Part shown: positions 1,757 to 31,898 of the stretch, piece after piece
Numbering within the stretch: the stretch's first letter is position 1
Layout: each line of letters opens with the position of its first letter
IMG/VR virus record: IMGVR_UViG_3300048918_000375
Span: 1-33,841 of that record
Strand: one strand, 5' to 3'
Length of the DNA stretch: 33,841 nucleotides
DNA from: a virus
Made by a program: the position numbers and the translations under genes
The notes under the pieces: generated by a model
Seen by the model: only the letters and a program-made list of their open reading frames with translations
What the model was told of the DNA's origin: nothing
The model's database searches: none

Positions 1757-1851
1757 CGGTTCTCTCCGAGAGAGGGGGTTGCGTCAGACGACAACTATGG
1801 TCTCCGGTAGCGCTCAACCGCAACACCAATTTGCGCCTGATGCAAACCCGG

Positions 1852-2031
1852 TCAGCGCCGATCGATGCCCAGATTGGCGCCAAAATGGCGCAATTCATCT
1901 CGCAATTCCGTCGCCAGCCAGAGCGCCAGCTCGAGGTCGCCGCGGCGCAAATACTCAGTCAGGCAGCGGGCTTGTCGCTCCATATCCAGCAGTTTGAGCG
2001 CGGCGTCGTTGAGCAAAGAGCCATCCGCCAT
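1852..2031 (-). CDS. Hypothetical small protein (59 aa), below the ORF-track cut-off
   Basis: ATG 2031 has a GAGGAG 8 nt upstream. Translation is MADGSLLNDAALKLLDMERQARCLTEYLRRGDLELALWLATELRDELRHFGANLGIDRR. Same strand as cI-like, xis and int. Confidence 0.45.
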   Translation of the reverse strand: MADGSLLNDAALKLLDMERQARCLTEYLRRGDLELALWLATELRDELRHFGANLGIDRR

Positions 2032-17607: not shown

Positions 17608-17783
17608 TCGCCTGGGGACACCCGCCGGCCGAGGTGTGGCGCTACACGCCGCGGCAGATCCGCAATTTCCTTGTTATCGCGAACAAGCGGCGGCAGGCCG
17701 AGCGGCGGCTCCTGCTGCATGACAACGCGCTGGCCGCCCGCGGCGACCCGAAAGCCTTGGCGAAAGCGGTGCGCGAAGAATGA
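17173..17783 (+). CDS. gpGT-like frameshift fusion product (about 203 aa, -1 shift at 17511-17517)
   Basis: The -1 frame encodes ..GYEIAEGIEQLIAWGHPPAEVWRYTPRQIRNFLVIANKRRQAERRLL... It has no start codon of its own, and its stop overlaps the next ATG (ATGA at 17780). Confidence 0.45.
17511..17517 (+). promoter_or_regulatory. Candidate -1 programmed frameshift heptamer C-CCT-TTG
   Basis: It is in X-XXY-YYZ phase with the gpG-like frame (codons 114-115, Pro-Leu). The -1 frame is open from 17451 to TGA 17781-17783. Confidence 0.45.
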
Positions 17784-18418
17784 ACGTCCGGTACCAGAGC
17801 GGCCTCGATCAGTTGAAGCGGGGCGCGCAGACGGCACAGGACCGGATGGCGCGCGCGCTGACCAAGGCGATGCGAGATACCGCAAAGCTGGTCGAGACGA
17901 ACGCCCGCGCCGAGATCGCCCGCGGCGGGCTTTCGCGCCGCTGGCAGAAGGCATTCTTTGCACGCGCCAAGCCGCGGGTCGGCTACAGCCTCGAGCCGAC
18001 GATGCGCGGATATATCCGCATCGGCTACGCCAACATCTTTGAGCGCGGCGGCCAGATCCGGCCAAAGAAGAACCTCTTGTGGGTGCCGCTGCCGACCGCG
18101 CCGCGGCTCGCCAGGAAGCGCATCACGCCGAGCGCCTATGTGCAGCAGATCGGGCCCTTGCACAGCATCAACCGGCCGGGCAAGCCGCCGCTCCTGGCGG
18201 GCGACGCCGCGCGCAAACCCACCGGCCGGGCCAGCGTGGCGTCGCTCAAGACCGGCGCCCGCCGCAGGAGCGCGGGCCGGCACACCGAAAGCGTGCCGAT
18301 CTTTGTCGGTATCCGGGCGGCCCTTATTCCCGACCGGCTCGATGTCGACCGCGTCTACCGTGAGGCCGCCGAGGCGCTGCCGCGGTTCTTCCGTCAGCGC
18401 ATGAGCGAGGCAGCTTAG
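17780..18418 (+). CDS. Virion-associated hypothetical protein (weakly HK97 gp10-like) inserted between chaperone and tape measure
   Basis: 212 aa. IRIGYANIFERGGQIRPKKNLLWVPLP is reminiscent of gp10-type neck/tail proteins. Confidence 0.3.
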   Translation: MNVRYQSGLDQLKRGAQTAQDRMARALTKAMRDTAKLVETNARAEIARGGLSRRWQKAFFARAKPRVGYSLEPTMRGYIRIGYANIFERGGQIRPKKNLLWVPLPTAPRLARKRITPSAYVQQIGPLHSINRPGKPPLLAGDAARKPTGRASVASLKTGARRRSAGRHTESVPIFVGIRAALIPDRLDVDRVYREAAEALPRFFRQRMSEAA

Positions 18419-20173
18419 ATGGCGCGCGGCGGCGGCGGCATCCGGCAGCAGATCGCGGTTGACGGCAAGGAGGAGGTCGTCGCCGCCTTCAAGGAAGTGG
18501 GCTCGGCCGGCGAGCAAGCCTTCACCCAGGTCGACCGAGGCTCGAAGTCCGCCACCCAAAGCCTGCGGAGCTTCACCAGAGAAGCCACCGGCATGCGCCG
18601 GGCGACCGGGCAGTTGCTCAAGAATTTCGGCGACATGGGCCGCGGGCTCGAATCGATCGGCGGGCTGTTGGGCTCGGCCTTGGGCGGTGTGGCCGGCGGC
18701 GTCATCGGCGTCGGCCTCGCGAAAGTCGTCAGCGGTATCGCCAACAGCCTTGGCGACGTGACCGAGCGGTTGACGAAGATTCAGCAGCAGGCGCGGGAGT
18801 TGGGACAACGCCCGCTGGTGGTGCAGGCGGCCGGCGAAATTTCCGCCGCGGCGGGGCAGGGCACCGATGTCGGCGAGCGGATGATCGCCGGGATGACCGC
18901 GCAACTTCAGAAGGTGCGGACGGAAACAAAGGCACTAAGCACCTTCGACGGCGTCAAGGTCTTGCGTGGGATGGGCGAGGACGCCAAGGAGACGGCGGGC
19001 CATTTTGTGACGCTCAGCGGCGCCGTCAACAACACCGTGAAGGTGTTCCGGGGCGGCGTGCCGATCGTGCAGGATCTGTCCAAGCCGCTGGACGTCATCC
19101 AAGTCGATCTGTCGCGGATGAAGGACAATTCGCTTGAGAGCAAAAAGGCGCTTCAGCTTCAGCTTCAAGGTTTCTTGAACTTTGCAAAAACCCTGGACCC
19201 GACATCGCAAAAGCTGAATGAACTATCCAAGGTCTTGTTTGCAGGGGTGCCGGCGGGAGCGGCGCTGATCGTCGCGCCGAAGCTGCTCGCCGACCTTAAT
19301 AAGCAGATAGCGGAACTGGAAACCTCGGCGCGCGGCGCCACCGACCCGGCGCTGGATGCCGCCACGCGGCGCACCGCGGCAATAGCCGCGCGCAACCAGA
19401 TGTTCCTCGAACTCACCGCCGGGATCACCAACTGGTACATCGGGCTCGATGCGGCGGTGACCGAGGCCGAGAACAGGTTCATCACCGACACGCTCCCGAA
19501 GTGGAGCGCGGACTTTTCCGCCTTCTTCAGCAACTCTTTTATGCCGACGATGCAGAGCGCGTGGGCATCGTTTATCGGCGACATGAGCCAGCTTTTCGTG
19601 GCGGCGAACTGGTCGCAGCTTTGGACCGACTTTTCGAACGCCGCCATCACGAGCCTCAACGGCATCGGTAAATGGTGGGGCGACCTGATCAAAGGGATGA
19701 TGGACGGCCTTAGCAACCTTGCCTCCTGGGCGGGGCAACAGTTGTCCGGCATCGCGGCCGCCGCCGGAAGCATCCTGTCTGCGGTGCCGGTGCCTGGATT
19801 CGCTGCGGGCGGCATGGTGCATGGCCCCGGCAGCGGCACCAGCGACAGCATCGTGGCGCGGCTATCGGCCGGCGAATTTGTCATGCGCGCCGCAGCGGTG
19901 CAGCATTGGGGCGCCGGGCTGCTCGCATCGATGAACGCGGCGGTCGGCGGCTTGTCGGCGCCGCTGGTGGCACGCAACCCTGGGCGCTTTGCCGATGGCG
20001 GGCTGGTCACCGCCGGCGGTGGAACGCCCGTGCATCTACATCTCGGCGGCCATAGCTTCGCGCTGTCAGGCAGCGGTGATGTCGTCTCGGCGCTCGTCAT
20101 CGAGGCGCACCGGCACAAGATCCGCGCCACCGGCATCAAGCCTAGCTGGTACGGTGGCACGCCCGGCCGATGA
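18419..20173 (+). CDS. Tail tape measure protein (584 aa)
   Basis: Position, helical and Gly-rich membrane-like segment (LLGSALGGVAGGVIGVGLAKVV), and length. At about 1.5 Angstrom per residue this implies a tail of roughly 90 nm. Confidence 0.8.
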   Translation: MARGGGGIRQQIAVDGKEEVVAAFKEVGSAGEQAFTQVDRGSKSATQSLRSFTREATGMRRATGQLLKNFGDMGRGLESIGGLLGSALGGVAGGVIGVGLAKVVSGIANSLGDVTERLTKIQQQARELGQRPLVVQAAGEISAAAGQGTDVGERMIAGMTAQLQKVRTETKALSTFDGVKVLRGMGEDAKETAGHFVTLSGAVNNTVKVFRGGVPIVQDLSKPLDVIQVDLSRMKDNSLESKKALQLQLQGFLNFAKTLDPTSQKLNELSKVLFAGVPAGAALIVAPKLLADLNKQIAELETSARGATDPALDAATRRTAAIAARNQMFLELTAGITNWYIGLDAAVTEAENRFITDTLPKWSADFSAFFSNSFMPTMQSAWASFIGDMSQLFVAANWSQLWTDFSNAAITSLNGIGKWWGDLIKGMMDGLSNLASWAGQQLSGIAAAAGSILSAVPVPGFAAGGMVHGPGSGTSDSIVARLSAGEFVMRAAAVQHWGAGLLASMNAAVGGLSAPLVARNPGRFADGGLVTAGGGTPVHLHLGGHSFALSGSGDVVSALVIEAHRHKIRATGIKPSWYGGTPGR

Positions 20174-20631
20174 TCGGAGCCTCGAATACCGACTTCGATA
20201 TTCATTTCCCGTCTGACACAGCGCCCGGCGTTGCGCCCTATTCAGCCCGCGGCCTCAACGGCACGTTGTCGCCGATCGATGCCGCCCGCGGCGCGGACAA
20301 GCTGCGCCGCACCGTCAACGGCACGCTCGTCGACATCTCGGCGCCGCAGATGCGCAAGTATCAGCTCGAGGTTGCCGGCTCGGACCAGGCGCCGCCCGCG
20401 CTCGATGGCGTGTGGGTGGGTATGGAGGTGCTGGTCGATTGCCATGTCGAGCTTGCGTACCTGACGGCGGGCGGCACGCCGGGGCGCTCTCCGGTGACCG
20501 GCAGCGAGCGGGTCGAGGGCGATTACACTTATTACCGCCCGCAGCTTTCCATGCGCGTCGTCGAGCTCCAGATCGAGCGCAGCGAGTGGGAGGCCGATGT
20601 TGGCTGGTCGCTGACGCTGGAGGAAATCTGA
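20170..20631 (+). CDS. Distal tail protein candidate (153 aa)
   Basis: First gene after the tape measure, with ATGA coupling. Confidence 0.4.
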   Translation: MIGASNTDFDIHFPSDTAPGVAPYSARGLNGTLSPIDAARGADKLRRTVNGTLVDISAPQMRKYQLEVAGSDQAPPALDGVWVGMEVLVDCHVELAYLTAGGTPGRSPVTGSERVEGDYTYYRPQLSMRVVELQIERSEWEADVGWSLTLEEI

Positions 20632-20765
20632 TGGCCTGCGGTGGGTGTGCGGCGCGCCGTGCCGGGATGCGGCGGCTGAAGCAGCGGGTGCTCGCTCGGC
20701 TGAAGGGCAGAGTAGTCCCGCCGCCGCGGCAACCCGCTAAGGCGCCGCCGGCAAAGCAGGGCTGA
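20631..20765 (+). CDS. 44-aa basic CxxC peptide (MACGGCAARRAGMRRLKQRVLARLKGRVVPPPRQPAKAPPAKQG)
   Basis: Start overlaps the upstream stop (TGATG) and its stop overlaps the next start (TGATG), so it is coupled on both sides. Confidence 0.35.
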   Translation: MACGGCAARRAGMRRLKQRVLARLKGRVVPPPRQPAKAPPAKQG

Positions 20766-23500
20766 TGCCGGGCCCCTTCAAGTTTGCCTGGGCTGGCGGC
20801 ACCATCACCGAGCAGCAGACGCTCGTCGTCAACGGCAACACGCACGGCGGCCTGGTCGAAACCATAACCCTGGTCGGCGATACCGAGGCAGGAATCGCGT
20901 CTCTGCGCAACATAGCCAGCAGCAGCGGCTTGGAAGCCGGCGCCTTGTATACGATCGCCGGTCCCGGATTAGCGGATGGCACGTTCTTCATTTACGACGT
21001 TTCGATCCTGACGGAAGAAGGCTCGATCAACCTCAGCGATGCGGCAAGCGGCACGCTTAACAACGCGACGTTTGTGGCGACCAAGTCGATATTGATCGGG
21101 TCTACCGCTGCGGCGATGACCCAAGGATCGCACTTCATCACCTTGGTCGACGACATCGGGTTGCTGCCGGGATTGTACTGCGTGTCTGGCACCAGCATCG
21201 GAGAGACGGCATCGCCGGCGAGCGATACGGAGACGGTCTTTGTCAGCACCGCCTGGGTCTCCTACAGCGGCGGCGGCGTGTTTGCCATGTACATCTTGGT
21301 GCCCGGCGGGATGCAGCCGGTATGGGCGACGTCGACCGGGACTTACGCGATCCGCATCACCGGGATGCCGACGGCCGATTGGTACAGCGTGACGAGCATT
21401 CCTGCTGGCGCGTTGGCGGGGTTGACCGCGGGGTTGCGGTACAACATCGCCGGCAATGGCATTCAAGTCGGCACGACCTTTCTCGCCGACAGCAGCGCCA
21501 CGACGATCACTCTCGATCTTCCGGCCAGCTCTACCAGCATCAACGCCATCCTGACGATTACCGGGCCGCGAACCCCGAACGCCGATTTCGATCCTGCCGT
21601 CCATAACCGGGAAGACGAACAGATCGTCGCCCTGGAGATCAGCCAGGAAGAGGGCGGCTTCGCGACGCTGACCATCGAGATCCGCAATCCCAATATCGGG
21701 TTGCTGGCATTTGGCAGAAACCTCTGGGCCTGGTTGTCATGGGATCAGGCATGGACACCGGAAGGCGGCGGCGCGCCCGACCTTGTCCCGTTATTCAATG
21801 GCCGGCTGATCGGCGTCCCAACGCTATCGGTCGGCGAGACAGTTCAGCTGCAATTTCTGGCCAGGCCCGACGACTTCAACGCACAGAAGGACGCGCTCGT
21901 CTCGGACATGAGCGTGCTGCCGTATTACGATCCGATCTGGCTCGCCGCGAACGTCAATCCCGACACCGTGCTTGAGACGTATTCGTCGCTCTGGCACATC
22001 GACCGCGTCAGCCTCGTATTGACAGCAAGCGACATCCTGCAGGGTGAAGCCGGCGTTATCAGCGTCGGCGAAGACGCCGCGTTCTACGATAGCTTCAGTC
22101 TTTCTTACGGGTCGACGCCGCTCACCGCGATCACTCTATCCGGCACGGTAAGCTGGAACCAACAGGGCGAAGGCGCAATCGACATTACTCAGACGCTTAT
22201 CGATGCGTTTGCCGCCGGCGGGAGCCCGTACAAAACCGCATTCGGCAAGTATGTTCCGCCTAGAGATCCGGCGCGCGGTAAGTCGCCCGCCAAGGGCGGC
22301 GGGCTCATTACCTGCATCTGCGGCGACGGGCTGCGTACCGATTGGCCGAAACCGGGCACCAGCATCGGCGGCGGTTGGTCGCTCTCCACCGGGAACGACG
22401 GTGCGGGGCAGCCGCTGTGCTATTGCATCGATGCGCTGCAGCCGAACGGGTGGATGCAAGCGCAAACCTACAACGTAAAATATGGCGGCCAATCAACCGC
22501 CGACACGACGGGCATGACCAGCGATCAGGCAAATGTGGCCGTGATTACCGAGCCTTACGGTCAATACACCGCGCGCTTTCCGATCAACATCTACAAAATC
22601 CAAATGGTGCTGGACTGGAAAGCAGATCGGCCGCGCACCGAAACCGTTACGGCGGTTTTGACCGCCAACGTTCAGAGAGAGCTGTCTGACACCGCCGACA
22701 GCGATCGCGAAGATATGTCCTATAGTTCCGAATATGTCGACAAGGGCATCGATCCCGGTGGCGAGGTGCCGCTCGGCAGCATCTCTCGCCGGTCATATTT
22801 TCAAACCGACCGCGGGGCCGCGTCTTTTGAATATCTGCTATTGGCGGCGCGGGCGAAGATGCGGGCGCGGGCGCGCTCGGTCGATATCACCTTTGGCGTC
22901 GATTGGTACACTGCGCTCGGCATTACGCTGCGCCACAGCGTCATCTACCTTGACCGGCGGCTGCCCGGCGGCGCTGCAACAGGCAAAGTCAAGAGCTACA
23001 AACTCACCGCCGGCGAAACGATGGCCGGCGAGTTCACCATCGGGTGCTCGATCGGCAACGACGATCTGTCGAGCGCCGCTGAGGGCGTCCTCTCTTATGT
23101 CGAGTTAGATTACGTCGATCCCGGCTATCAGGTCATCGTCGGTGGTCAAAAGATGCTGCTGGATGAGGAACTGGCCTATGAGTCGTTGGACAATTTTGTG
23201 ATCGACGACGACAACCTCGACCTCACCAACATGACCGTGGATCGTGCGGTCAATGAATGCGTCGTGGTTAATGGGTTGACCTCTCAGTTCGATAAGCTGT
23301 CGTCTTATCAACGCCTGGTGGCGCCGACTGCGAGCGACCCGATCAGCGCGATGAAAACCGCGACGACGGCAGTTACTCTTGACCTTAAGCCGCTAACCGG
23401 AAACTCATTTCACACGACGTTCTTTCCCGCCGTCTCTCAGCTCTGGTTGCCGAAGACGATCGACCTCGCAGCCTCGTCGGGCCGACGCCATGCCGTTTGA
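20765..23500 (+). CDS. Large tail-tip / hub (Tal-like) protein, 911 aa
   Basis: Size and position after the tape measure and distal tail protein. The central segment LFNGRLIGVPTLSVGETVQLQFLARPDDF resembles hub-type tail proteins. Confidence 0.55.
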   Translation: MPGPFKFAWAGGTITEQQTLVVNGNTHGGLVETITLVGDTEAGIASLRNIASSSGLEAGALYTIAGPGLADGTFFIYDVSILTEEGSINLSDAASGTLNNATFVATKSILIGSTAAAMTQGSHFITLVDDIGLLPGLYCVSGTSIGETASPASDTETVFVSTAWVSYSGGGVFAMYILVPGGMQPVWATSTGTYAIRITGMPTADWYSVTSIPAGALAGLTAGLRYNIAGNGIQVGTTFLADSSATTITLDLPASSTSINAILTITGPRTPNADFDPAVHNREDEQIVALEISQEEGGFATLTIEIRNPNIGLLAFGRNLWAWLSWDQAWTPEGGGAPDLVPLFNGRLIGVPTLSVGETVQLQFLARPDDFNAQKDALVSDMSVLPYYDPIWLAANVNPDTVLETYSSLWHIDRVSLVLTASDILQGEAGVISVGEDAAFYDSFSLSYGSTPLTAITLSGTVSWNQQGEGAIDITQTLIDAFAAGGSPYKTAFGKYVPPRDPARGKSPAKGGGLITCICGDGLRTDWPKPGTSIGGGWSLSTGNDGAGQPLCYCIDALQPNGWMQAQTYNVKYGGQSTADTTGMTSDQANVAVITEPYGQYTARFPINIYKIQMVLDWKADRPRTETVTAVLTANVQRELSDTADSDREDMSYSSEYVDKGIDPGGEVPLGSISRRSYFQTDRGAASFEYLLLAARAKMRARARSVDITFGVDWYTALGITLRHSVIYLDRRLPGGAATGKVKSYKLTAGETMAGEFTIGCSIGNDDLSSAAEGVLSYVELDYVDPGYQVIVGGQKMLLDEELAYESLDNFVIDDDNLDLTNMTVDRAVNECVVVNGLTSQFDKLSSYQRLVAPTASDPISAMKTATTAVTLDLKPLTGNSFHTTFFPAVSQLWLPKTIDLAASSGRRHAV

Positions 23501-23624
23501 ATATGCCGTCCGCCCTTTTGAGTCGAGGGATAGTCATGGTCGGGTCATTCTACCTGCAACGCCGTCGGGCTTCGAGCGGGCGACCCTGACCTGGGGCGCT
23601 AAGGTCGCCGGCTTGCCGGAACCG
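23490..23624 (+). repeat. Conserved 5-prime block, copy 1
   Basis: Direct comparison of the DNA with 23943-24056 and 24559-24693. Confidence 0.85.
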
Positions 23625-23933
23625 GAAATATCCGGAACCGAAGTCACCTGTTGCCATGAACAGTTGGCCGAACATCAACGGGTCGGCGAAGTACACAAGA
23701 TTGTGTCGAAGGAATCTCCTGGGCTGTTCATTCTGGAACATCGAGCCACCGAAGTTAAACTTAAAAAGAAAACGGAAGATAAATGTGCCTCCGATTGGAC
23801 GCAGATGTCGTATGTCGCATCCGCGGTGGAAAGTGTTTTCGCCGATCTTAAGGCTGACATTGAATCCGTCGGCGGGGCCGATGCCGAGAGTACCGATCCG
23901 TGTTTTACCACGCTTCACCTCAACACAACATAG
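23490..23933 (+). CDS. Paralog 1 of the MPFEY-family (147 aa), unknown function
   Basis: Shares an N-terminal 45-aa block and a C-terminal CASDWTQMSYVASAVESVFADLKADIESVGG block with the next two genes. Confidence 0.7.
   Translation: MPFEYAVRPFESRDSHGRVILPATPSGFERATLTWGAKVAGLPEPEISGTEVTCCHEQLAEHQRVGEVHKIVSKESPGLFILEHRATEVKLKKKTEDKCASDWTQMSYVASAVESVFADLKADIESVGGADAESTDPCFTTLHLNTT
23775..23876 (+). repeat. Conserved 3-prime block, copy 1
   Basis: GATAAATGTGCC..GATTGGACGCAGATGTCGTATGTCGC..GACATTGAATCCGTCGGCGG. Confidence 0.8.
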
Positions 23934-23942
23934 AGCTAATGA

Positions 23943-24056
23943 ATGCCCTTTGAATACTTTGTCAGGCCGTTTCAATCCACCGACTCGCACGGCCGGGTCA
24001 TCCTGCCTGCGACGCCGTCGGGCTTCGAACGCGCGACCCTGACCTGGGGCGCTAAG
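23943..24056 (+). repeat. Conserved 5-prime block, copy 2
   Basis: About 7 mismatches in 114 nt versus copy 3. Confidence 0.85.
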
Positions 24057-24542
24057 ACAACGGCGAATCAGGTGCAGCTCAAGAAAGAAGGTCAGGGCGC
24101 CGGGTGCTGCAAGGACACGCGGACGCAGAATAAGGCAGAGAAACAGTTTGCGGGGCAGTTTATGCAACAGATTTGGGGACCGGGAACGGCCGGGCCGCCG
24201 CGACCACATGGACAATGGGGCGCTAGCGTTGACACCAAACGAAGTGTCGGCGTTTTATCGAAGGTGAACGACACGAATAGCTGCGCCGATGATTGGACGC
24301 AGATGTCTTACGTTGCGTCTGCGGTGGAAAGTGTTCTTGCCGACCTTAAGGATGACATTGAATCCGTCGGCGGCAAGACTGTTGATCATTGCAAGGCGAG
24401 GATCAATTCAGTCGTAACTGAGGCTTGGGAATTTACCGGCGATCCAGCTGGAGCGTTTCCCCAAAAGGTTCCGGCCTTTCCCCCTCCCAGCCTCGCCGGT
24501 ACTCCTGGCTTGGTCTGGGAACCGCCGGCGGCACCAGCGTAA
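23943..24542 (+). CDS. Paralog 2 of the MPFEY-family (199 aa), divergent core and Pro-rich tail
   Basis: Same N-terminal 38-aa block and CADDWTQMSYVASAVESVLADLKDDIESVGGKTVDHC block. Confidence 0.7.
   Translation: MPFEYFVRPFQSTDSHGRVILPATPSGFERATLTWGAKTTANQVQLKKEGQGAGCCKDTRTQNKAEKQFAGQFMQQIWGPGTAGPPRPHGQWGASVDTKRSVGVLSKVNDTNSCADDWTQMSYVASAVESVLADLKDDIESVGGKTVDHCKARINSVVTEAWEFTGDPAGAFPQKVPAFPPPSLAGTPGLVWEPPAAPA
24270..24392 (+). repeat. Conserved 3-prime block, copy 2
   Basis: GATGATTGGACGCAGATGTC..GCCGACCTTAAGGATGACATTGAATCCGTCGGCGGCAAGACTGTTGATCA. Confidence 0.8.
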
Positions 24543-24558
24543 CCGCGGGGCGAAGAAA

Positions 24559-24693
24559 ATGCCATTTGAATACTTTGTCAGGCCATTTCAATCCACCGAC
24601 TCGCACGGTCGGGTCATCCTACCTGCGACGCCGTCGGGCTTCGAGCGCGCGACCCTGACCTGGGGGGCCAAGGTCGCCGGCTTGCCGGAACCG
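24559..24693 (+). repeat. Conserved 5-prime block, copy 3
   Basis: Mosaic: like copy 2 at its 5-prime end, and like copy 1 in GTCGCCGGCTTGCCGGAACCG. Confidence 0.85.
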
Positions 24694-25017
24694 AAAAGAA
24701 CTGGAAACAACGTTAATTGCTGCAACGAGCATCTGCATGAGCTCGACCGGAAAGGCGATATAGTAAGCATCGCCGACCCGGATACGCCGGAAAATTACAT
24801 AGTCGTCGACCGTGCGGTTGCGGTGAACTTTCGCAAAGCCACGGACGATAAATGCGCCGATGATTGGTTGCAGATGTCGTATGTCGCGTCTGCGGTAGCA
24901 GCTGTTTTCGCCGACCTTAAGGATGACATCGAATCCGTCGGCGGCAAGACTGTTGATCAGTGCCACCAGACTTTTCATTTGAGTCCGAACACCGTGCCGC
25001 CGTGGGAAGACCCATGA
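24559..25017 (+). CDS. Paralog 3 of the MPFEY-family (152 aa)
   Basis: Same blocks, with architecture collinear to paralog 1. Confidence 0.7.
   Translation: MPFEYFVRPFQSTDSHGRVILPATPSGFERATLTWGAKVAGLPEPKRTGNNVNCCNEHLHELDRKGDIVSIADPDTPENYIVVDRAVAVNFRKATDDKCADDWLQMSYVASAVAAVFADLKDDIESVGGKTVDQCHQTFHLSPNTVPPWEDP
24844..24963 (+). repeat. Conserved 3-prime block, copy 3
   Basis: Shares GATAAATG and ATGTCGTATGTCGC with copy 1, and the GGCAAGACTGTTGATCA tail with copy 2. Confidence 0.8.
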
Positions 25018-25613
25018 TTACCAGGCCAAGGCGGGGCCGCGATGTGTCGACGCAGACCTTCTCTTATCAGATCCCGTTCATGCTGGATCGCATTGTCGAA
25101 CTGCATACCAAGCGCGACCCGACACAAGATCCGCCGCCGCCCGCGGAACCGCCGCCGGAAACGCCGATCATCTGTACCCCGTCATGGGATTCCAGCCCAG
25201 AGTTCGGCATACCAACATTTATCTATTATGTCGGCAACGCGCTGTGGATCAACCCGCAGCAATGCTGCCCGCCGGCTATGTTGAACCCGGATGGTAGTCC
25301 GTTGGATATGGGGGATATCACCGGGCCGGTGGTTAATTTCAGTTCTGCAATGATACCGGGGCAAAACGCCCCGAAGGTGACGATAACATTTAACGGCGAT
25401 GTGGACTGGATCAAAAAGTGGCCGCGAACCTGCATCCAGCAAATCGACCGATACGAACCGGAGTTCGTTAGCTCGCCCGTAATCTGTACCATTGACGAGA
25501 TGGCCTTGCCGGAACACGAGGCGCATCAGGGATGCGGCACGACCATTATAGTCAAGGTGCCGCCGGGTGGCGGCGGCCACATCACTGTCGAATTTGACTG
25601 CGAAGGCGGCTGA
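25014..25613 (+). CDS. Cys-rich tail-associated hypothetical protein (199 aa)
   Basis: ATGA coupling to paralog 3 and TGATG coupling to the fibre gene. Pro-rich linker (DPPPPAEPPPETP) followed by a domain with 8 Cys. Confidence 0.55.
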   Translation: MITRPRRGRDVSTQTFSYQIPFMLDRIVELHTKRDPTQDPPPPAEPPPETPIICTPSWDSSPEFGIPTFIYYVGNALWINPQQCCPPAMLNPDGSPLDMGDITGPVVNFSSAMIPGQNAPKVTITFNGDVDWIKKWPRTCIQQIDRYEPEFVSSPVICTIDEMALPEHEAHQGCGTTIIVKVPPGGGGHITVEFDCEGG

Positions 25614-28600
25614 TGGTTGACATCACTTATCGCACGCTCGGGCCGTGGGGTTCCGGCAAGGGAGCCAACCTTCAACCGAGCGAGGTTGATGAAAACTTTT
25701 ATTCGTTAGCACAGGCAATTGTCGATATCCAGGCCAACCCGGAAGCGCCGAACGGGATAGAATCGATCACGGTCAGCGGCACGCAGATGACCATCTACCT
25801 GACGGATGGCACTGTGCTTGGGCCGTATACATTGCCGGTGCTTACGTTCCGTTGGCGCGGCGAGTTCGAGCCGAATGTTTATGCCGTGCTCGATGTCTTT
25901 ACCGTCAGCACCGGCAATACCGACGTTCTCGATCCAGCTTTAGTTTCTTACGGCATTTATATGGTGCAGATCGCCGGCACCTATTCGCTATTCGACCAGA
26001 ACGAAATGGTCGATGGCGCGCCCGTCTACAAACAGTTGTTCGGATCGGCCGACAACAGCGTCAGCACGATGGGCGACGTTGATATCATCGAGCCGCTAAC
26101 TGACGGCGACGTGCTGCGTTGGACGGAGAGTATTAGCCGGTGGGTGAACTCTCCGCTGGGATCGATGGCGGTGCAGGCCGCCAGCAATGTCAATATTACG
26201 GGAGGCGTGTTCCACAACCTCGCCAACCCGTTGTTGCCGGGGGACGCCGTCAACAAGGCATACGTCGACGCGCTGCCAGGCGGCACCATGGTGAACGACC
26301 ACACCATGATGTCGAACATTTCCGGCCTGATCGGGCCGGCGCTGCCCAACACACTGTCGGATTTCCTCGACTACGTGCTCCTGACGACCGTGCGCGGCAC
26401 GTTGCTCTACCGCGGCGGCACGGGTTGGCTCGCGTTGCCTCCGGGTGCCGATGGTCAGTTCCTCCAGACGCACGATGCGGGCGCCGACCCGACGTGGGCG
26501 GTCGGGGCTGCCGGTGTCGTCCGGATCGCCGCCGGCACCGGGATCGATACCGGCGGCGCCGACATCACGAGCACCGGCATCGTATCGCTAGCCGGCGCCG
26601 CCGACAGCCGCCTCCTGGCAAATATCAGCGGCGCCGCGGCCTCACCCACGCCGCAGACCCTATCGGCCATTCTCGACCACATCCTGACCAACGCGCGCGG
26701 CACCATCCTGGCGCGCAACATCAGCGGATGGGTGGGGTTAGCGCCGGGGACCAGCGGCTACTATCTGAAGACGCAAGGCGCGGGCGCCGATGTGATGTGG
26801 GACGCCCCGGTCGGCTCGGGCACGCTCACCTCGATCAGCGCCGGAACCGGCATCACGACGGGCGGCTCGCCGATCACGGCCACCGGCACGGTGTCGCTGG
26901 CCGACATTGCCAGCGACCGCATCCTGGCGAACATCAGCGGCAGCACCGCGGCGCCGACGCCACAGACGCTAACCCTGGTCTTGGATCACATCTTCGGCAC
27001 CACGCAGGGCGCCGTGCTGTACCGCTCGGCGACCGCCTGGGTGATGCTGTCTCCCGGCACCAGCGGTCAGTTCCTGGCGACCGGCGGCGCGGCGGCAAAC
27101 CCCTCGTGGCAGAACGCGCCGATCACCGGGGCCAGCACGGCGAACCTGCGGATCGTCTCGAACATCAGCGGCTCGACGGCTGTCCCGACCGGCAACACGC
27201 TGTCGAATATCCTCGACGCGATCATCAGCTCGTCGCGCGGCACGCTGCTCTACCGCAGCAACAGCGGCTGGACCGGGTTGGCGGCTGGCACGACCGGGCA
27301 GATCCTGCAAACCGGCGGCGCTAGCGGCGACCCAAGCTGGACCGCGCCGCCGGGCGCCACGGCGATCAGCAACAGCCGGGTTATGTCCAACATCAGCGGT
27401 GGTTCGGCGGCGCCGATTGGCAACACGCTGACCGCGATATTCGACAGCATCCTCGGCGCGGCCCGCGGGATGATCATTTACCGCGACAACAGCGGCTGGC
27501 GCACGTTGGCGGCGGGCACCGCGGGACAGCTTTTGCGCACCGGCGGCACAACTGCCGACCCGAGCTGGATCACCGCAACGCCGGCCAGCGGCATCTCGCA
27601 GTTGACCGGCGATGTCGCCGCCGGTCCCGGCACCGGCAGCCAAGTCGCCACCCTCGCCAGTACCGCCGTGACGCCAGGCAGCTACACCGCGGCCAACATC
27701 ACGGTCGATGCTAAGGGCAGGGTCACCGCGGCAGCCAACGGCGCGGCTGGCAGCGGCATCAATCAGCTCACCGGCGATGTGACGGCGGGCCCCGGCACCG
27801 GCAGTCAAGCCGCAACATTGTCGAATACCGCGGTGACGCCGGGGAGCTACACGCTGGCTTCGATCACCGTCGATGCTAAAGGACGGCTCACAGCCGCAAG
27901 CAACGGCACGGGCGGCGGCCTCACCGATGCGCCGAGCGACGGCACGTCATACGGCCGTCTCAACGCCACCTGGGCCGCTGTGGCGCCGCTTGCCAGCCCG
28001 GCGCTGACCGGCACGCCAACGGCGCCGACAGCCGCTCTCGCGACGAGCACAACGCAGATTGCCACGACTGCGTTTGTGCAAGCGGCGTTGCCGGCCGCCG
28101 GACTGAATCAGCTTACGGGCGATGTGACCGCCGGCCCTGGCAGCGGCAGCCAAGCCGCGACGCTGGCCAATACCGCGGTGACGCCTGGCAGCTATACCGC
28201 GGCGAATATCACAGTTGATGCGAAAGGCAGGGTGACGGCGGCGGCCAACGGCAGCGGCGGCGGCATCACGCAGTTGACCGGCGACGCGACGGCAGGGCCC
28301 GGCAGCGGCAGCCAGGCGATTACGCTCGCCAGTACCGCGGTGACGGCCGGCAGCTATACCGCGGCGAATATCACAGTTGATGCGAAAGGCAGGGTCACCG
28401 CGGCGGCCAACGGCGCCGCGGTGCCACACCCCGGTTATCGCTCGGGTATCTATTACACGCGGCCGATATCCGCGCCCGGCGTCAATACCGCAATGGTGGC
28501 TAACCGGATTTACGCCACACCGATTTTCATCGCCAGCCCGATCACTATCGATGCGATGCAGATTTTTGTCGGGACGGTGGCGAGCAGCACCTCTGCCGAG

Positions 28601-28954
28601 CTTGGCATTTATGCCAATTCCAATGGTGCGGTCGGCAGCTTGATCCGGGATGTCGGAACGGTCAACACGGGGTTGTCCAACGTGCAGGCGGTGACCGGGT
28701 TCACTCAGGCATTGGCGGCTGGCTGGTATTTTCTAGTTGCCGGGTTTAGCGGCACGCCGTCGGTTATCACGACGACAGCCACCGATATTTCGCAGATGCA
28801 CCTGCTGGGTTTCACCGGATTGGGTTCGAGTTTCCAGGGCTTCCAAGGCTGGCTCGCGACGTGGACATTCTCGGCCGGCAACCTGCCGACGACGCTCGCT
28901 GGTCCGGCTCAGAATGCCGGATCGTTTCCGCTGATCGCGTTCCGGGCGCAGTGA
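25613..28954 (+). CDS. Tail fibre (1113 aa) with two internal repeat families and a distinct C-terminal domain
   Basis: Five NISG...L(D)xI...RG.(L/I).YR...GW..L..GT.GQ.L.T.G...DP.W units. Four QLTGD(V/A)TAGPG.GSQA.TL..TAVT.GSYT.A.ITVDAKGR.TAA.NG units. APSDGTSYGR.NATW and TTQIATTAFV motifs typical of phage fibres. Confidence 0.85.
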   Translation: MVDITYRTLGPWGSGKGANLQPSEVDENFYSLAQAIVDIQANPEAPNGIESITVSGTQMTIYLTDGTVLGPYTLPVLTFRWRGEFEPNVYAVLDVFTVSTGNTDVLDPALVSYGIYMVQIAGTYSLFDQNEMVDGAPVYKQLFGSADNSVSTMGDVDIIEPLTDGDVLRWTESISRWVNSPLGSMAVQAASNVNITGGVFHNLANPLLPGDAVNKAYVDALPGGTMVNDHTMMSNISGLIGPALPNTLSDFLDYVLLTTVRGTLLYRGGTGWLALPPGADGQFLQTHDAGADPTWAVGAAGVVRIAAGTGIDTGGADITSTGIVSLAGAADSRLLANISGAAASPTPQTLSAILDHILTNARGTILARNISGWVGLAPGTSGYYLKTQGAGADVMWDAPVGSGTLTSISAGTGITTGGSPITATGTVSLADIASDRILANISGSTAAPTPQTLTLVLDHIFGTTQGAVLYRSATAWVMLSPGTSGQFLATGGAAANPSWQNAPITGASTANLRIVSNISGSTAVPTGNTLSNILDAIISSSRGTLLYRSNSGWTGLAAGTTGQILQTGGASGDPSWTAPPGATAISNSRVMSNISGGSAAPIGNTLTAIFDSILGAARGMIIYRDNSGWRTLAAGTAGQLLRTGGTTADPSWITATPASGISQLTGDVAAGPGTGSQVATLASTAVTPGSYTAANITVDAKGRVTAAANGAAGSGINQLTGDVTAGPGTGSQAATLSNTAVTPGSYTLASITVDAKGRLTAASNGTGGGLTDAPSDGTSYGRLNATWAAVAPLASPALTGTPTAPTAALATSTTQIATTAFVQAALPAAGLNQLTGDVTAGPGSGSQAATLANTAVTPGSYTAANITVDAKGRVTAAANGSGGGITQLTGDATAGPGSGSQAITLASTAVTAGSYTAANITVDAKGRVTAAANGAAVPHPGYRSGIYYTRPISAPGVNTAMVANRIYATPIFIASPITIDAMQIFVGTVASSTSAELGIYANSNGAVGSLIRDVGTVNTGLSNVQAVTGFTQALAAGWYFLVAGFSGTPSVITTTATDISQMHLLGFTGLGSSFQGFQGWLATWTFSAGNLPTTLAGPAQNAGSFPLIAFRAQ
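26306..27592 (+). repeat. Fibre repeat family A (5 units of about 75-100 aa, protein-level similarity)
   Basis: Units start near aa 232, 334, 437, 513 and 589 of the fibre. Confidence 0.75.
27593..28417 (+). repeat. Fibre repeat family B (4 units of about 54 aa in two pairs separated by a 60-aa linker)
   Basis: 28171-28252 versus 28333-28414 differ at only 5 of 82 nt and share a 47-nt identical run. Confidence 0.85.
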
Positions 28955-29380: not shown

Positions 29381-30961
29381 TCATAGCTTCTTCCACTGCT
29401 CGGCGATGATGCGCTCGAGCTCCGCGCGGTCGGCAGCCGCCAGCGCGGCGCGCGCCTCTTCCAGGTTGTGCTCGTTGGCGCCGAGTAGGTCCGCGAGCTC
29501 GTTGCTGGCGGTGCAGCGCCGGATCTTTGGGCCGAGCAGCGCCAGCGCCCAGGTGCGCCAGTCCCGCTTGCCATTCTTTAACGGCACCGCGATCTCGAGG
29601 CCGCTGTGATCTGAGTCCACCGGCGGCGGCGGCTCGGCCGGCCTGTGGTGGTCGACCTCGGCCAGGCCGAAAGGATCATCGTCAGCGTCGTCCGCTGGTG
29701 GCGCGTGGGGCGCCTGTTCCTCGATAGGCGGCTCCGGGGCCGGCGCCTCGCTTGCACGCGTCTGGCGCGCTCTGCGCGGCACTAGTGATCCGGGATAGCC
29801 TTCCTCCTCGACCATCCGCCGACGCGCGGCTTCACTTGGAGCAAGCCTGCCGCCTTCGCCTGCCGGCGGAGTTTGGCTACGGCCAGCAGGTTTCGGTTTG
29901 CGCTGGGCCTCGTAGGCGCGGGTGATTTCGTCGGCAATGTCGCGATGCCCGGCAGCCGCCAGGAACTCGACCGCGTTCCGATTATCCTCCCACCAACCCT
30001 CGAGGCGCTCGGGGCCGAGCCGGGCCGCTTCGTCGAGGCAGATCCGCAACGCCTCGCCGGCGGCGCCGGCGGCGCCATAGATATTCTCGACGCCATCGAG
30101 ATCGACCACGGCGAACTCGGGGCCGATCGGCTCAACGCTGCGGCCGATCCGATCTTGCTCGGGCTGCGGCTCCGGTTGACGGTGGTGGGTCAGGGGGCCG
30201 AGATCCTGCCCGATCGCCGGTTCCTCCTCGTCGCGGTCCAGCACCGTGCGCAGTTCGGATGAGAAAGGCGCCTGCTTGGCGGCGCGCCGCAGCGCGGTCT
30301 TCTTCGCACCCTCCCAATAGAAATTCGTCCACATCGGCGAGTTCTTCGCGCGCGATACATTGCGGGCGGCCTCGATCATGCTGCGGTCGAGCACGTCGCG
30401 GATCACTTCGCCGTTCTTCAACCGGATTATCGCGTATGCGCCGATCACCTGACCGCGGGACACGCCGAGCGGCGGCGGCTCGTGTTCGATCATCGCATCG
30501 TCGCCCAGCCGGTAGCGGAAATGATCCTTCTCGAACACCGCCTCGGCGATCGCGCTGGCGACCTCGCCCGATTTGCGCATCCGCTCGCGCAGCCCGGCGA
30601 GCATCGGCATATAGGTCGCTGCGTCGATCTTGCGGATGTGGTCGATGCCGGTCTGCGGGTCGCGCTGTTTGACATCGGTGCGGAAGACGACGAGCGCCGC
30701 CTGGCGGCCATCGGGGAGTAAACCGTCCACCGCGCACCGCATCGCCGCATTGAACAGGCTGCGCCGGTCGGCGTAGAGCAATTCCGGGTTGGTCGACACC
30801 GCTGTCACCAGCACCCGCTTGAACCGCTCGACCGGGATGTCGGCCGGCAGCGCGTCCTTCAGGTTCGGCGTGTAGTGTTCGAGGTCCGCATAGAACACCT
30901 CGGCCATATTCTGGCGCGGCTTGGTTGCAAGCTCCTTAGCGTCGGACACTGACTCCTCCAT
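29381..30961 (-). CDS. recT: RecT-family single-strand annealing protein with about 250-aa C-terminal extension
   Basis: YMPMLAGLRERM, GQVIGAYAIIRLKNGEV, MIEAARNVSRAKNSPMWTNFYWEGAKKTALRRAAKQAPFSSEL is the RecT pattern. Start ATG 30961 (MEESVSDAKE) taken within track ORF 29381-31162. Confidence 0.8.
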   Translation of the reverse strand: MEESVSDAKELATKPRQNMAEVFYADLEHYTPNLKDALPADIPVERFKRVLVTAVSTNPELLYADRRSLFNAAMRCAVDGLLPDGRQAALVVFRTDVKQRDPQTGIDHIRKIDAATYMPMLAGLRERMRKSGEVASAIAEAVFEKDHFRYRLGDDAMIEHEPPPLGVSRGQVIGAYAIIRLKNGEVIRDVLDRSMIEAARNVSRAKNSPMWTNFYWEGAKKTALRRAAKQAPFSSELRTVLDRDEEEPAIGQDLGPLTHHRQPEPQPEQDRIGRSVEPIGPEFAVVDLDGVENIYGAAGAAGEALRICLDEAARLGPERLEGWWEDNRNAVEFLAAAGHRDIADEITRAYEAQRKPKPAGRSQTPPAGEGGRLAPSEAARRRMVEEEGYPGSLVPRRARQTRASEAPAPEPPIEEQAPHAPPADDADDDPFGLAEVDHHRPAEPPPPVDSDHSGLEIAVPLKNGKRDWRTWALALLGPKIRRCTASNELADLLGANEHNLEEARAALAAADRAELERIIAEQWKKL

Positions 30962-31898
30962 CCTCGACCCAGGCGCGCACGCCGATAATCTGCACGCCGC
31001 TCTCGACGGCGGCGACGCCGAGGTCGCGCAACTCATGCTCGGTGAGCTTGTGGACGAGCTGCTCGACCTGCGTTCTCCGCGGCGAGCGCAGGATGTCGCG
31101 CAGCCGTGCGGCGAAATCCTGAATCTCAAATCGGATCTGCTTGCGCCTCGTGGTCTGCCCAAGCTGCGAGCGGGTCGGCTCGTGCCGGATCGCGTCGGCC
31201 CGACGCGCCAGCCGCTCGGCTTCGTCCTGTGCCTTCAGCGCCTCGAGCTCCGCGGCGGGATCGATCTTGCCGGCGCTGGCCTTCGCCTCGGCAGCCGCTC
31301 GGGCGACAGCGGCTTCCTCCTCGCGTTTGCGGGCTTCTTCCGCCAGCCGGCGGCGCTCGGCCTCGACCGTGGCGCGCTGCTTATCGTCCCACGCCGTCAG
31401 CATCCGGCTCAGCCCGTCGCGGCCGCTGGTGCCGCCGATCGCCAGCGAGAGCTTTAGCTTCAGCGCGTCGTAGCTGTGGTTGATGAGCTTCACGGCATCG
31501 CGGTAGGGCTCGGTCCGCGCGAGGCGCGCCTTGTCCACTTCGTCGTGTAATTCCTTTAGCTGGCGGGTGAGGTCGACCACCTTGCCTGCCGACGCCTCGT
31601 CCACGATGACGCTGCGCGCCGCCACGGCCAGGAGCTGGTCGGCGCGAGAGCGGCGGCCAGCCAGTTCCTCGTCAAGCGCTTCGTCCAACGGTGGCCGATT
31701 GTGGCCGATACCGGGGGCCCGTGCTCGGATTGCCGCTATCGCGCGGAGTTGGTCTTCCGACCCTTCTGGCCAGTGCGCCGCCGCGAGGCAGATGTCGGTG
31801 GTCGACATGCCAGCATATTCATCGAGGTCGGGCAGTGCCTCGGCTTCGGCGACGAGTTGGTTCGTCATGGCAGCAAGGCCCGCGGGCACCAAGTACAT
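30936..31898 (-). CDS. Coiled-coil hypothetical protein with an IGHNRPP motif (alternative start ATG 31868)
   Basis: Long charged helix EAERRRLAEEARKREEEAAVARAAAEAKA. It sits immediately upstream of recT and overlaps it by 26 nt. Confidence 0.55.
   Translation of the reverse strand: MYLVPAGLAAMTNQLVAEAEALPDLDEYAGMSTTDICLAAAHWPEGSEDQLRAIAAIRARAPGIGHNRPPLDEALDEELAGRRSRADQLLAVAARSVIVDEASAGKVVDLTRQLKELHDEVDKARLARTEPYRDAVKLINHSYDALKLKLSLAIGGTSGRDGLSRMLTAWDDKQRATVEAERRRLAEEARKREEEAAVARAAAEAKASAGKIDPAAELEALKAQDEAERLARRADAIRHEPTRSQLGQTTRRKQIRFEIQDFAARLRDILRSPRRTQVEQLVHKLTEHELRDLGVAAVESGVQIIGVRAWVEDGGVSVRR

What the first reader, a model, noticed from the sequence alone, without database searches (positions are those of the whole stretch)
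23490..25017. Three tandem paralogous genes with near-identical end blocks and unrelated cores, between the tail-tip protein and the tail fibre
Three consecutive same-strand ORFs (147, 199 and 152 aa) all begin MPFEY(A/F)VRPF(E/Q)S.DSHGRVILPATPSGFERATLTWGAK. All carry a second conserved block, C-A-(S/D)-D-W-(T/L)-QMSYVASAV..V.ADLK.DIESVGG. All have a CC dipeptide near residue 54 and two more conserved Cys. Between the blocks the sequences are unrelated: copy 2 has a Q/G/P-rich core and a Pro-rich tail, while copies 1 and 3 share another architecture. At DNA level the blocks are roughly 90-95 percent identical and are mosaic. Copy 3 follows copy 2 over the first ~50 nt and in GGCAAGACTGTTGATCA. 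The same copy follows copy 1 in GTCGCCGGCTTGCCGGAACCG and in GATAAATG...ATGTCGTATGTCGC. That pattern is what gene conversion or recombination between cassettes would leave. The segment is lower in GC than the flanking tail genes. I recognise no family for these proteins. Their position suggests a diversifying set of tail-tip or receptor-binding accessory proteins. The >100-bp direct repeats would also permit cassette gain, loss or shuffling by homologous recombination, and the phage encodes RecT. No reverse transcriptase, invertase or template repeat is present, so this is not a known DGR or shufflon design.
Basis: partly seen in the sequence, partly recalled or inferred. Interest (0 to 1): 0.8.

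Follow-up and report, generated by a model that had tools for sequence, protein, structure and literature searches.

The report
Triplicated phage tail-tip gene, recombining ends
A temperate soil-type phage carries three side-by-side copies of a small, uncharacterised tail-tip gene; the copies share end segments that have served as recombination points and keep distinct, separately inherited middles, which is an unusual variant of how phages remodel their host-contact machinery rather than a new diversity-generating system.

Summary
Three same-strand ORFs (147, 199 and 152 aa) at 23490-25017 share an N-terminal block, a C-proximal block and four Cys. The same layout appears in 18 independent assemblies.

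They belong to an unannotated ~150-aa family: no Pfam, PHROG, NCBIfam, PDB or Foldseek match. The family always sits directly after a ~900-aa hub-like tail protein and before a ~200-aa protein and the fibre. Relatives carry 1, 2 or 3 copies.

The cores are three orthologous lineages (Long, A, B) under purifying selection (dN/dS about 0.2). They are not unrelated and not hypervariable.

The C block evolves in concert within genomes: the nearest neighbour is a same-genome paralogue in 21 of 27 cases, against 3 of 27 for the core.

The window's array is recombinant. The four other three-copy lineages closest to it have the order Long-A-B; the window has A-Long-B. The first ~16 codons stay with the position and the breakpoints lie inside the N block. 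Copies 2 and 3 show recent DNA-level exchange.

No reverse transcriptase, invertase or inverted repeats were found.

The function is inferred, not shown: tail-tip subunits with a shared docking peptide and a shared helix that present different beta-hairpins. I rate it a new variant of a known kind, of moderate interest.

The parts
20765..23500 (+). 911-aa hub-like tail-tip protein. Its last 11 nt overlap the start of copy 1. The family always follows its orthologue in relatives.
   Evidence: It has no Pfam, PHROG or PDB match. It lies after the tape-measure gene at 18419-20173.
23490..23933 (+). Copy 1 (147 aa): an A-type core placed at array position 1.
   Evidence: core 78% identical to L001_9555; the first ~16 codons match the position-1 gene of L001, and the rest matches the A gene.
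23535..23550 (+). Approximate recombination breakpoint inside the N block of copy 1. Upstream resembles the L001 position-1 (Long) gene; downstream resembles the L001 A gene.
   Evidence: alignment A5; 93/87/80% changing to 80-93%.
23943..24542 (+). Copy 2 (199 aa): Long-type core with a Q/G/P-rich insertion and a Pro-rich tail, here at position 2.
   Evidence: core 72% identical to L001_8980; the 5' ~25 codons resemble the L001 position-2 gene, and the body matches the Long gene at 83-93%.
24559..25017 (+). Copy 3 (152 aa): B-type core. The N part up to about residue 45 is A-like, and residues ~116-140 are 97% identical to copy 2.
23490..23603 (+). N block of copy 1 (codons 1-38). Proposed docking peptide.
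   Evidence: Positions E4, R8, P9, W35 and G36 are at least 90% conserved in 150 sequences.
23943..24056 (+). N block of copy 2, 94% nt identical to that of copy 3.
   Evidence: 29 of 36 conserved residues use the same codon, P = 4e-4.
24559..24672 (+). N block of copy 3.
23779..23894 (+). C block of copy 1 (conserved Cys plus predicted helix).
24277..24392 (+). C block of copy 2.
24848..24963 (+). C block of copy 3, 87% nt identical to copy 2, with 20 of 25 conserved residues using the same codon.
25014..25613 (+). 199-aa Cys-rich protein. Its start overlaps the copy 3 stop (ATGA). It is a fast-evolving neighbour and a candidate partner.
25613..28954 (+). 1113-aa tail fibre.
   Evidence: (PHROG tail-fibre families).

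Best explanation
The three ORFs are tandem paralogues of an uncharacterised ~150-aa tail-tip protein. In more distant relatives this protein is a single-copy, syntenic core component encoded between the hub-like ~900-aa protein and a ~200-aa protein plus the fibre. Two successive duplications gave three sub-lineages: Long, A and B.

Proposed parts of each protein:
1. A very conserved, extended N-terminal ~40-residue peptide. I infer that it docks on the conserved hub.
2. A long beta-hairpin core held by a Cys cluster. This is the part that differs between paralogues.
3. A hydrophobic helix (the C block). I infer that it packs either with the other copies, so that the three would form a hetero-oligomer replacing an ancestral homo-oligomer, or with one shared fast-evolving partner.

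Because all copies must fit the same sites, the end blocks stay alike within a genome. That happens through strong purifying selection at the N end and concerted evolution at the C block. This likeness gives homologous recombination >100-nt substrates. Recombination may use the phage's RecT or host functions.

In the window's lineage, recombination moved the A and Long bodies relative to their positions and copied block segments between copies 2 and 3.

Shown: the paralogy, the synteny, copy numbers of 1 to 3, orthologous cores, concerted C block, the swapped order with breakpoints in the N block, and recent exchange between c2 and c3.

Inferred: presence in the virion, the docking and oligomerisation roles, and any effect on host range.
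For: Family and synteny. The family always sits directly after the hub orthologue and has 1, 2 or 3 copies.

Tight operon structure: there is an 11-nt overlap with the hub gene and an ATGA overlap with the next gene.

Core orthology versus block concert: the nearest neighbour is a same-genome paralogue for 3 of 27 cores but for 21 of 27 C blocks at aa level and 23 of 27 at nt level. For L011 versus L017, C blocks are 78-86% nt identical within a genome but 55-60% between genomes, while orthologous cores are 70-77%.

Rearrangement.

Recent DNA-level exchange in the window: identical-codon fraction is 0.81 for the N block (P = 4e-4) and 0.80 for the C block (P = 4e-3) of c2-c3, against a background of about 0.5.

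Purifying selection: dN/dS is 0.17-0.21 for the genes and 0-0.05 for the N block.

The array is a divergence hot spot bounded by the blocks: dS is 0.71-1.06, against 0.30-0.37 in the hub gene, the 199-aa gene and the fibre's first 750 codons. The trend is the same in three other sister pairs.

AlphaFold2 with 150 sequences predicts a hairpin at 55-72 and 80-97 with pLDDT about 90, an N-terminal 54 residues without secondary structure, and a helix at 114-126.

RecT is present.
Against: - No direct evidence places the proteins in the virion.
- The structure model is only moderately confident overall (pLDDT 67) and matches no known fold, so the docking and oligomer roles are conjecture.
- Outside the window, within-genome C-block similarity is not accompanied by a clear excess of shared synonymous codons beyond what the core shows (0.52 versus 0.42 in the C block; 0.53 versus 0.44 in the core). 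In most lineages the concert could therefore be old conversion or protein-level co-evolution rather than ongoing conversion.
- Two-copy genomes are common, which fits a strict 1:1:1 heterotrimer poorly.
- The order swap could have been imported from an unsampled relative rather than made in this lineage.
Confidence: 0.6

Rival explanations
1. Plain duplicated genes with no recombination. The end blocks look alike only because they are under strong purifying selection, and the apparent mosaic is chance.
For: The N block is nearly invariant across the whole family, with dN/dS 0-0.05. The runs test on the c3 mosaic inside the blocks gives P = 0.11. Outside the window there is no clear synonymous excess.
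Against: The C block is more diverged between genomes than the orthologous cores, yet alike within genomes. The first ~16 codons follow array position while the bodies are swapped relative to L001, L006, L007 and L008. The c2-c3 blocks share synonymous codons far above background.
Confidence: 0.1
2. A programmed diversity generator: a cassette system that switches or shuffles receptor-binding variants at high frequency within a phage population, as pilin-type gene conversion, shufflons or DGRs do.
For: There are direct repeats of more than 100 nt, RecT is present, copy number and order differ among relatives, and the array is a divergence hot spot.
Against: The 9 of 18 independent assemblies that were fetched and aligned are 99.9-100% identical across the array. 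All copies are complete, translationally coupled ORFs, with no silent cassettes. Cores are stable orthologues under purifying selection. No reverse transcriptase, invertase or template repeat was found, and no significant inverted repeats.
Confidence: 0.05
3. Non-structural helpers: the proteins are assembly chaperones for the hub, the fibre or the 199-aa protein, or other non-virion factors, and the paralogues serve different client domains.
For: They are small, have no detectable fold match, have a largely unstructured N-terminal third in the model, and are translationally coupled to structural genes.
Against: The position is upstream of the fibre rather than downstream, where fibre chaperones usually lie (general knowledge). 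There is no match to any chaperone family in Pfam, PHROG or NCBIfam. The family is conserved with the hub across a very wide clade. None of this is decisive.
Confidence: 0.2
4. Assembly artefact: a collapsed or expanded repeat gives a false three-copy array.
For: Several short contigs end inside the array.
Against: The layout is identical in contigs from many samples, including 18-34 kb contigs. The copies differ strongly in their cores. Homologous three-gene arrays exist in four diverged relatives.
Confidence: 0.01

Closest known systems
gp38 adhesins of T-even phages (conserved glycine-rich motifs flanking hypervariable segments; PMC3157838, which cites Tetart et al. 1996 and 1998)
   Same: Conserved motifs flank variable segments in a host-contact protein, and genetic exchanges occur within or near the conserved motifs and swap the variable parts. 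The window shows breakpoints inside its conserved N block.
   Different: There is no sequence or fold relation. gp38 is one gene exchanged between phages, whereas here there are 1 to 3 tandem paralogues in one genome. The variable cores here are orthologous lineages under purifying selection, not hypervariable loops. Receptor binding is not shown.
Phages with several receptor-binding proteins that share a conserved N-terminal anchor (for example multi-depolymerase Klebsiella phages, SP6/K1-5-type dual tailspikes, and lactococcal baseplate proteins BppU/BppA/BppL; from my own knowledge)
   Same: Neighbouring tail genes share a conserved N-terminal attachment part and have differing distal parts. 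Copy number differs among relatives.
   Different: Here the proteins are only ~150 aa and are conserved on both sides of a ~45-90-residue core. They have a Cys cluster, and no enzymatic or known receptor-binding domain is detectable. Homology was tested and not found.
Invertible tail-fibre segments (Mu G/Gin, P1 C/Cin) and shufflons (from my own knowledge)
   Same: Alternative variable parts are joined to a constant part of a tail protein by recombination at repeats.
   Different: Those systems use a site-specific recombinase and inverted repeats and switch at high frequency. Here all copies are direct, complete and co-oriented. There are no inverted repeats and no adjacent recombinase, and no variants among assemblies.
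Concerted evolution of tandem paralogues by gene conversion or unequal crossing-over (a general phenomenon, for example PMC3966223 and PMC7042247, listed)
   Same: Segments of paralogues are more alike within a genome than to their orthologues.
   Different: The concert is restricted to short end blocks while the cores escape it. At synonymous sites it is evident only in some lineages: the window, and L011 and L017.

Membership tests
Diversity-generating retroelement (DGR) | A reverse transcriptase gene near the target | tested here: not met
   Pfam scans of the large ORFs of the window found TerL, capsid/protease, portal, RecT, integrase, HTH and HNH but no reverse transcriptase. Small ORFs were not all scanned.
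Diversity-generating retroelement (DGR) | A template repeat and variable repeat pair that differ mainly at adenines | tested here: not met
   The repeats are the coding ends of three full-length paralogues. The differences are spread over all bases and are mostly synonymous.
Invertible segment or shufflon | Inverted repeats flanking the segments, plus an adjacent site-specific recombinase | tested here: not met
   Only seven short imperfect inverted pairs of 16-20 nt were found. All copies are on one strand. The only recombinase is the tyrosine integrase at 351-1898, in the lysogeny module.
Multi-RBP design with a shared N-terminal anchor | A conserved N-terminal part shared by neighbouring tail proteins with differing distal parts | tested here: met
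Multi-RBP design with a shared N-terminal anchor | The proteins are in the virion and bind host receptors | not testable with these tools
   This needs virion proteomics, cryo-EM and adsorption assays.
T-even gp38 adhesin family | Sequence homology: glycine-rich motifs and an N-terminal fibre-binding domain | tested here: not met
   No PHROG, Pfam or PDB hit for any of 150 family members.
Tail fibre assembly or tail chaperone families | A match to the known chaperone families, usually encoded downstream of the fibre gene | tested here: not met
   No hits in Pfam, PHROG or NCBIfam, and the genes lie upstream of the fibre. This does not exclude a new chaperone type.
Tandem paralogues under concerted evolution | Paralogous segments are closer within a genome than to their orthologues, while other segments follow orthology | tested here: met
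   (C block 21 of 27, core 3 of 27).
Tandem paralogues under concerted evolution | DNA-level homogenisation, seen as an excess of shared synonymous codons | tested here: inconclusive
   It is clear in the window for c2-c3 and suggested in L011 and L017. Over all genomes there is no excess beyond the core control.

The most novel reading that the evidence does not exclude
The three paralogues form an obligate hetero-oligomer that replaced an ancestral homo-oligomer at the junction between hub and fibre. Their end blocks are kept alike because they are the shared interfaces. As a by-product, or as a selected feature, the blocks act as portable recombination linkers. These linkers let whole cores, or the whole interior of the array, be exchanged between phages. 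That would be a modular host-contact cassette system based on general homologous recombination, without any dedicated recombinase.
Probability: 0.2. Interest if true: 0.7.

Novelty: new variant of a known kind. Interest (0 to 1): 0.5.

Why it matters
The family is a conserved, completely unannotated component of the tail tip in a large clade of uncultivated temperate siphoviruses. There are 146 clusters at 50% identity and none has a name.

The array gives a clean natural example of how tail modules evolve. The copy number rose from one to two to three. The cores became separate lineages. The shared ends stayed matched and served as crossover points.

If the proteins touch the host, the blocks mark where to cut and paste in order to re-target such phages. 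If they form a hetero-oligomer, this would be a case of symmetry breaking by duplication in a phage tail.

It is not a new kind of diversity generator.

Tried and rejected
Searches that found nothing:
- Pfam, PHROGs and NCBIfam on the three proteins and their neighbours.
- Pfam and PHROGs on 150 family members: only isolated single-member hits.
- PDB sequence searches with profiles of 31 and 150 sequences: best E about 0.6-0.7.
- PDB sequence searches with the hub-like protein, the 153-aa protein and the fibre.
- Megablast and tblastn against 50,697 cultured-phage records.
- A scan of one genome per bacterial or archaeal species for prophage copies.
- A literature search for DUF6441 and for tandem paralogous tail genes with gene conversion.

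Structure:
- The AlphaFold2 model from 31 sequences was poor (pLDDT 54).
- The model from 150 sequences was better (pLDDT 67), but Foldseek against PDB and BFVD gave only noise.

Rejected explanations:
- Invertible-segment and DGR designs.
- Internal promoters or terminators: counts are at the shuffle expectation.

Weak or inconclusive tests:
- A pooled synonymous-codon test did not separate gene conversion from co-evolution outside the window.
- A possible second, independent order swap (L047 versus L055) could not be established because their cores are too diverged.
- Gene-level dN/dS gave no sign of positive selection. Site-level tests were not run.


Full report
**1. The observation**

All are on the + strand and all begin MPFEY.

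The protein alignment shows two shared blocks. The first 38 residues are nearly identical. The second block runs C-A-x-D-W-x-QMSYVASAV..V.ADLK.DIESVGG. CC at 54-55, C99 and one later Cys are invariant.

At DNA level the repeat finder gives two families:
- A 115-nt N block: c2-c3 94%, c1-c2 78%.
- A 116-nt C block: c2-c3 87%, c1-c2 76%.

So "90-95%" holds for one pair only.

G+C is 0.56 in the array, 0.60 in the upstream gene, 0.65 in the fibre and 0.65 overall.

The array is not an assembly artefact. The exact c3 protein is on 18 contigs from many samples. The nine fetched contigs are 99.9-100% identical to the window across whatever part of the array they cover.

One correction: the next gene starts at ATG 25014 (199 aa) and overlaps the c3 stop as ATGA.

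**2. Context**

The window is an almost complete temperate siphovirus genome. It contains:
- An integrase at 351-1898 (-) and an HTH repressor.
- An HNH endonuclease, TerL, a protease-capsid fusion, a portal and a major tail protein.
- A tape-measure protein at 18419-20173.
- A 153-aa protein, then a 911-aa protein at 20765-23500 whose end overlaps c1 by 11 nt.
- The three paralogues, then the 199-aa protein.
- An 1113-aa protein with tail-fibre PHROG hits.
- RecT at 29381-31162 (-).

No promoter or terminator excess lies inside the array. The tight spacing and overlaps suggest one translationally coupled operon.

**3. What family is it?**

No described family matches:
- Pfam, PHROGs and NCBIfam give no hit for the three proteins.
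- The 911-aa and 199-aa neighbours have no hit either.
- Profiles of 31 and 150 members find nothing in PDB sequences.
- Scanning 150 members one by one gives only stray single hits.
- tblastn against 50,697 cultured-phage records finds neither c3 nor the 911-aa protein.
- One genome per prokaryotic species holds no copy.

The family is nevertheless real and sizeable. A profile search of 1.84 billion cluster representatives returns 146 proteins at E < 1e-3, nearly all of 140-165 aa. All named ones are "hypothetical".

AlphaFold2 gave two models:
- With 31 sequences the model was poor (pLDDT 54).
- With 150 sequences it reached pLDDT 67.

The better model shows a confidently predicted long beta-hairpin (55-72 and 80-97, pLDDT about 90). 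Its N-terminal 54 residues have no regular secondary structure. It has a helix at 114-126 and a short final strand. Foldseek against PDB and BFVD gives only noise (best E 0.04-0.25, TM < 0.25).

**4. Comparative anatomy**

The family gene lies directly after the orthologue of the 911-aa protein in the 21 viral-contig loci that include the upstream region. The same holds in two distant relatives. Those keep the order tape measure, ~143 aa, ~630-880 aa, family, ~200 aa, fibre.

Copy number differs among relatives:
- One copy in the most distant relatives (hub identity about 53-57%).
- Two copies in many lineages (57-67%).
- Three copies in the window and its four nearest lineages: L001/L005, L006, L007, L008/L010 (64-94%).
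- Three copies also in a separate diverged lineage (L047, L055).

So this is a conserved core component that was duplicated twice, not an accessory set.

**5. Cores are orthologous lineages**

The cores fall into three types. The window's c1, c2 and c3 cores are 78%, 72% and 67% identical to the L001 genes that I call A, Long and B. They are only 13-43% identical to each other.

Across 27 proteins from multi-copy genomes, the nearest neighbour of a core is a same-genome paralogue in only 3 cases.

Gene-level dN/dS between the window and L001 is 0.17-0.21. It is 0.04-0.27 in three other sister pairs. That indicates purifying selection, not hypervariability.

Cores A and B are clearly homologous (43%). 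Long is the diverged one and has an insertion. "Unrelated cores" is therefore an overstatement.

**6. The end blocks behave differently**

*N block.* It is the most conserved part of the whole family. E4, R8, P9, W35 and G36 are at least 90% conserved in 150 sequences. Its dN/dS is 0-0.05. Much of its similarity therefore needs no recombination.

*C block.* It is different. Its nearest neighbour is a same-genome paralogue in 21 of 27 cases at aa level and 23 of 27 at nt level.

In the sister pair L011/L017, C blocks are 86% and 78% nt identical within a genome. They are only 55-60% identical between genomes, although the orthologous cores are 70-77%. This is concerted evolution at the protein level.

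Whether DNA-level conversion drives it everywhere is not settled. The pooled fraction of identical codons at conserved residues is 0.55 within genomes against 0.42 between genomes for the C block. The core control also shows 0.52 against 0.44, which is probably genome-specific codon usage.

*Synonymous signal in the window.* It is clear for c2-c3:

| Pair and block | Identical codons | P (background 0.52) |
|---|---|---|
| c2-c3, N block | 29 of 36 | 4e-4 |
| c2-c3, C block | 20 of 25 | 4e-3 |
| c1-c3, C block | 17 of 24 | about 0.05 |
| c1-c2, C block | 18 of 26 | about 0.06 |

**7. The window's array is recombinant**

The other three-copy lineages close to the window have the order Long-A-B. 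The window has A-Long-B.

Sliding identities, a blastn map and the six-way alignment of gene starts show three mosaics:
- **c1** matches the position-1 (Long) gene of L001 from upstream through about codon 16 (93, 87, 80%). From there it matches the A gene (80-93%).
- **c2** has a 5' end like the position-2 gene. From about codon 30 it has the Long body (83-93%). The end of A and its junction to the next N block are collinear in both genomes.
- **c3** is A-like up to about residue 45, then B. It is 97% identical to c2 over residues ~116-140, and B again in the tail.

The first codons therefore follow array position while the bodies moved, and the breakpoints lie inside the conserved N block.

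One duplication by unequal crossing-over between N blocks, followed by two deletions between N blocks, reproduces three of these four chimeras. It predicts a position-3-like 5' end for c2, whereas the observed 5' end is closer to position 2. This is inference.

An import of the array interior from an unsampled relative is equally possible. Between the window and L001, dS is 0.71-1.06 for the three genes. It is 0.30-0.37 for the hub gene, the 199-aa gene and the first 750 codons of the fibre. The low-G+C flanks share the low dS, so composition does not explain the difference.

The same excess divergence of the array is seen in three other sister pairs. The divergent stretch runs from the N block of gene 1 to about the C block of gene 3. 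It is therefore bounded by the blocks.

**8. What it is not**

- No reverse transcriptase or invertase was found among the scanned ORFs.
- There are no meaningful inverted repeats.
- All copies are complete and co-oriented.
- There are no variants among assemblies.

DGR, shufflon, invertible-segment and silent-cassette designs are therefore not met.

**9. Most likely mechanism**

I commit to the following model, with confidence about 0.6 for the whole and less for the functional part.

These are tail-tip subunits:
- The invariant extended N-terminal peptide docks on the conserved hub.
- The hairpin core, closed by the Cys cluster (C54, C55 and C99 lie at the base of the hairpin in sequence terms), is the differentiated part.
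- The hydrophobic C-block helix shows an a/d-like spacing of M106, V109, V113, V116, L120, I124 and V127 in c3, read directly from the sequence. It packs either with the other copies or with one shared fast-evolving partner such as the 199-aa protein.

This accounts for three things: the ends must stay matched within a genome, the copy number stops at three in a three-fold tail tip, and the matched ends then act as substrates for homologous recombination.

Weak points:
- No evidence places the proteins in the virion.
- The model is of moderate confidence.
- Two-copy genomes are frequent.
- The cause of the concert is unresolved outside the window.

**10. Comparison with known systems, and novelty**

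The closest analogue in mechanism is the T-even gp38 adhesin. There, exchanges occur in or near conserved motifs that flank variable segments (PMC3157838).

The closest analogue in design is the set of phages with several receptor-binding proteins that share an N-terminal anchor (own knowledge). Homology to either was tested and not found.

The finding is a new, unannotated family and an unusual arrangement: short proteins, conserved on both sides of a small core, with concerted ends and orthologous cores. It is built from known evolutionary processes.

I rate it a new variant of a known kind, interest 0.5.

Noticed in passing
window 25613-28954: The 1113-aa fibre contains about five to six ~85-aa internal repeats (motif LANISG..APTPQTL..ILD.I...RG..L.R...GW..L.PGT.G..L.T.GA.ADP.W). 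After these come repeated LTGDVTAGPG...ITVDAKGRVTAAANG units. Tandem Repeats Finder reports a 165-nt unit x2 at 27586-27911. Between the window and L001 the fibre is conserved up to about residue 750 (dS about 0.25) and then diverges sharply (dS 0.7-1.5). That is a typical swapped distal end.
   Followed up: partly
window 23000-26000: A ~3-kb trough in G+C (0.54-0.58, against 0.62-0.70 around it) covers the 3' end of the hub gene, the array, the 199-aa gene and the 5' end of the fibre, not only the three paralogues.
   Followed up: partly
window 25014-25613: The 199-aa protein after the array is also Cys-rich and has its own CC dipeptide (QQCCPP). It has no family match. Its counterparts evolve very fast and change size with array copy number: about 450-555 aa in the L018-L025 one-copy genomes (246 and 294 aa in L026 and L014), 250-300 aa in two-copy genomes, and mostly 194-214 aa in three-copy genomes.
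   Followed up: partly
window 10515-12476: A single 653-aa ORF combines a prohead protease (Peptidase_S78, residues 31-144) with a major capsid domain (Phage_capsid, residues 388-592). This is a protease-capsid fusion.
   Followed up: no
window 29381-31162 (-): The RecT ORF is 593 aa as listed, but the RecT domain covers only residues 112-313. The L001 counterpart is called at 492 aa. Either the true start is further in, or there is a large extra C-terminal region of unknown function.
   Followed up: no
window 20631-20765; L001 6127-6255: The gap between the 153-aa gene and the hub gene holds a 42-aa gene that is called in the relative L001. This is a possible small conserved tail-tip ORF. It was not examined in the window.
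   Followed up: no
L047 1180-2790 and L055 640-2296: A second, diverged lineage also has three copies. The long member is at position 2 in L047 and at position 1 in L055, and the N blocks are 83-92% alike within each genome but 66-77% alike between them. This may be an independent order swap, but the cores are too diverged to prove orthology.
   Followed up: partly
window 17780-18418; L036, L037: A DUF6441 protein sits just before the tape-measure gene. The set UCP028589, Pre_tape_measure and DUF6441 recurs in distant relatives. It marks a wide, uncultivated siphovirus tail-module type. The full-text library holds no paper that mentions DUF6441.
   Followed up: no
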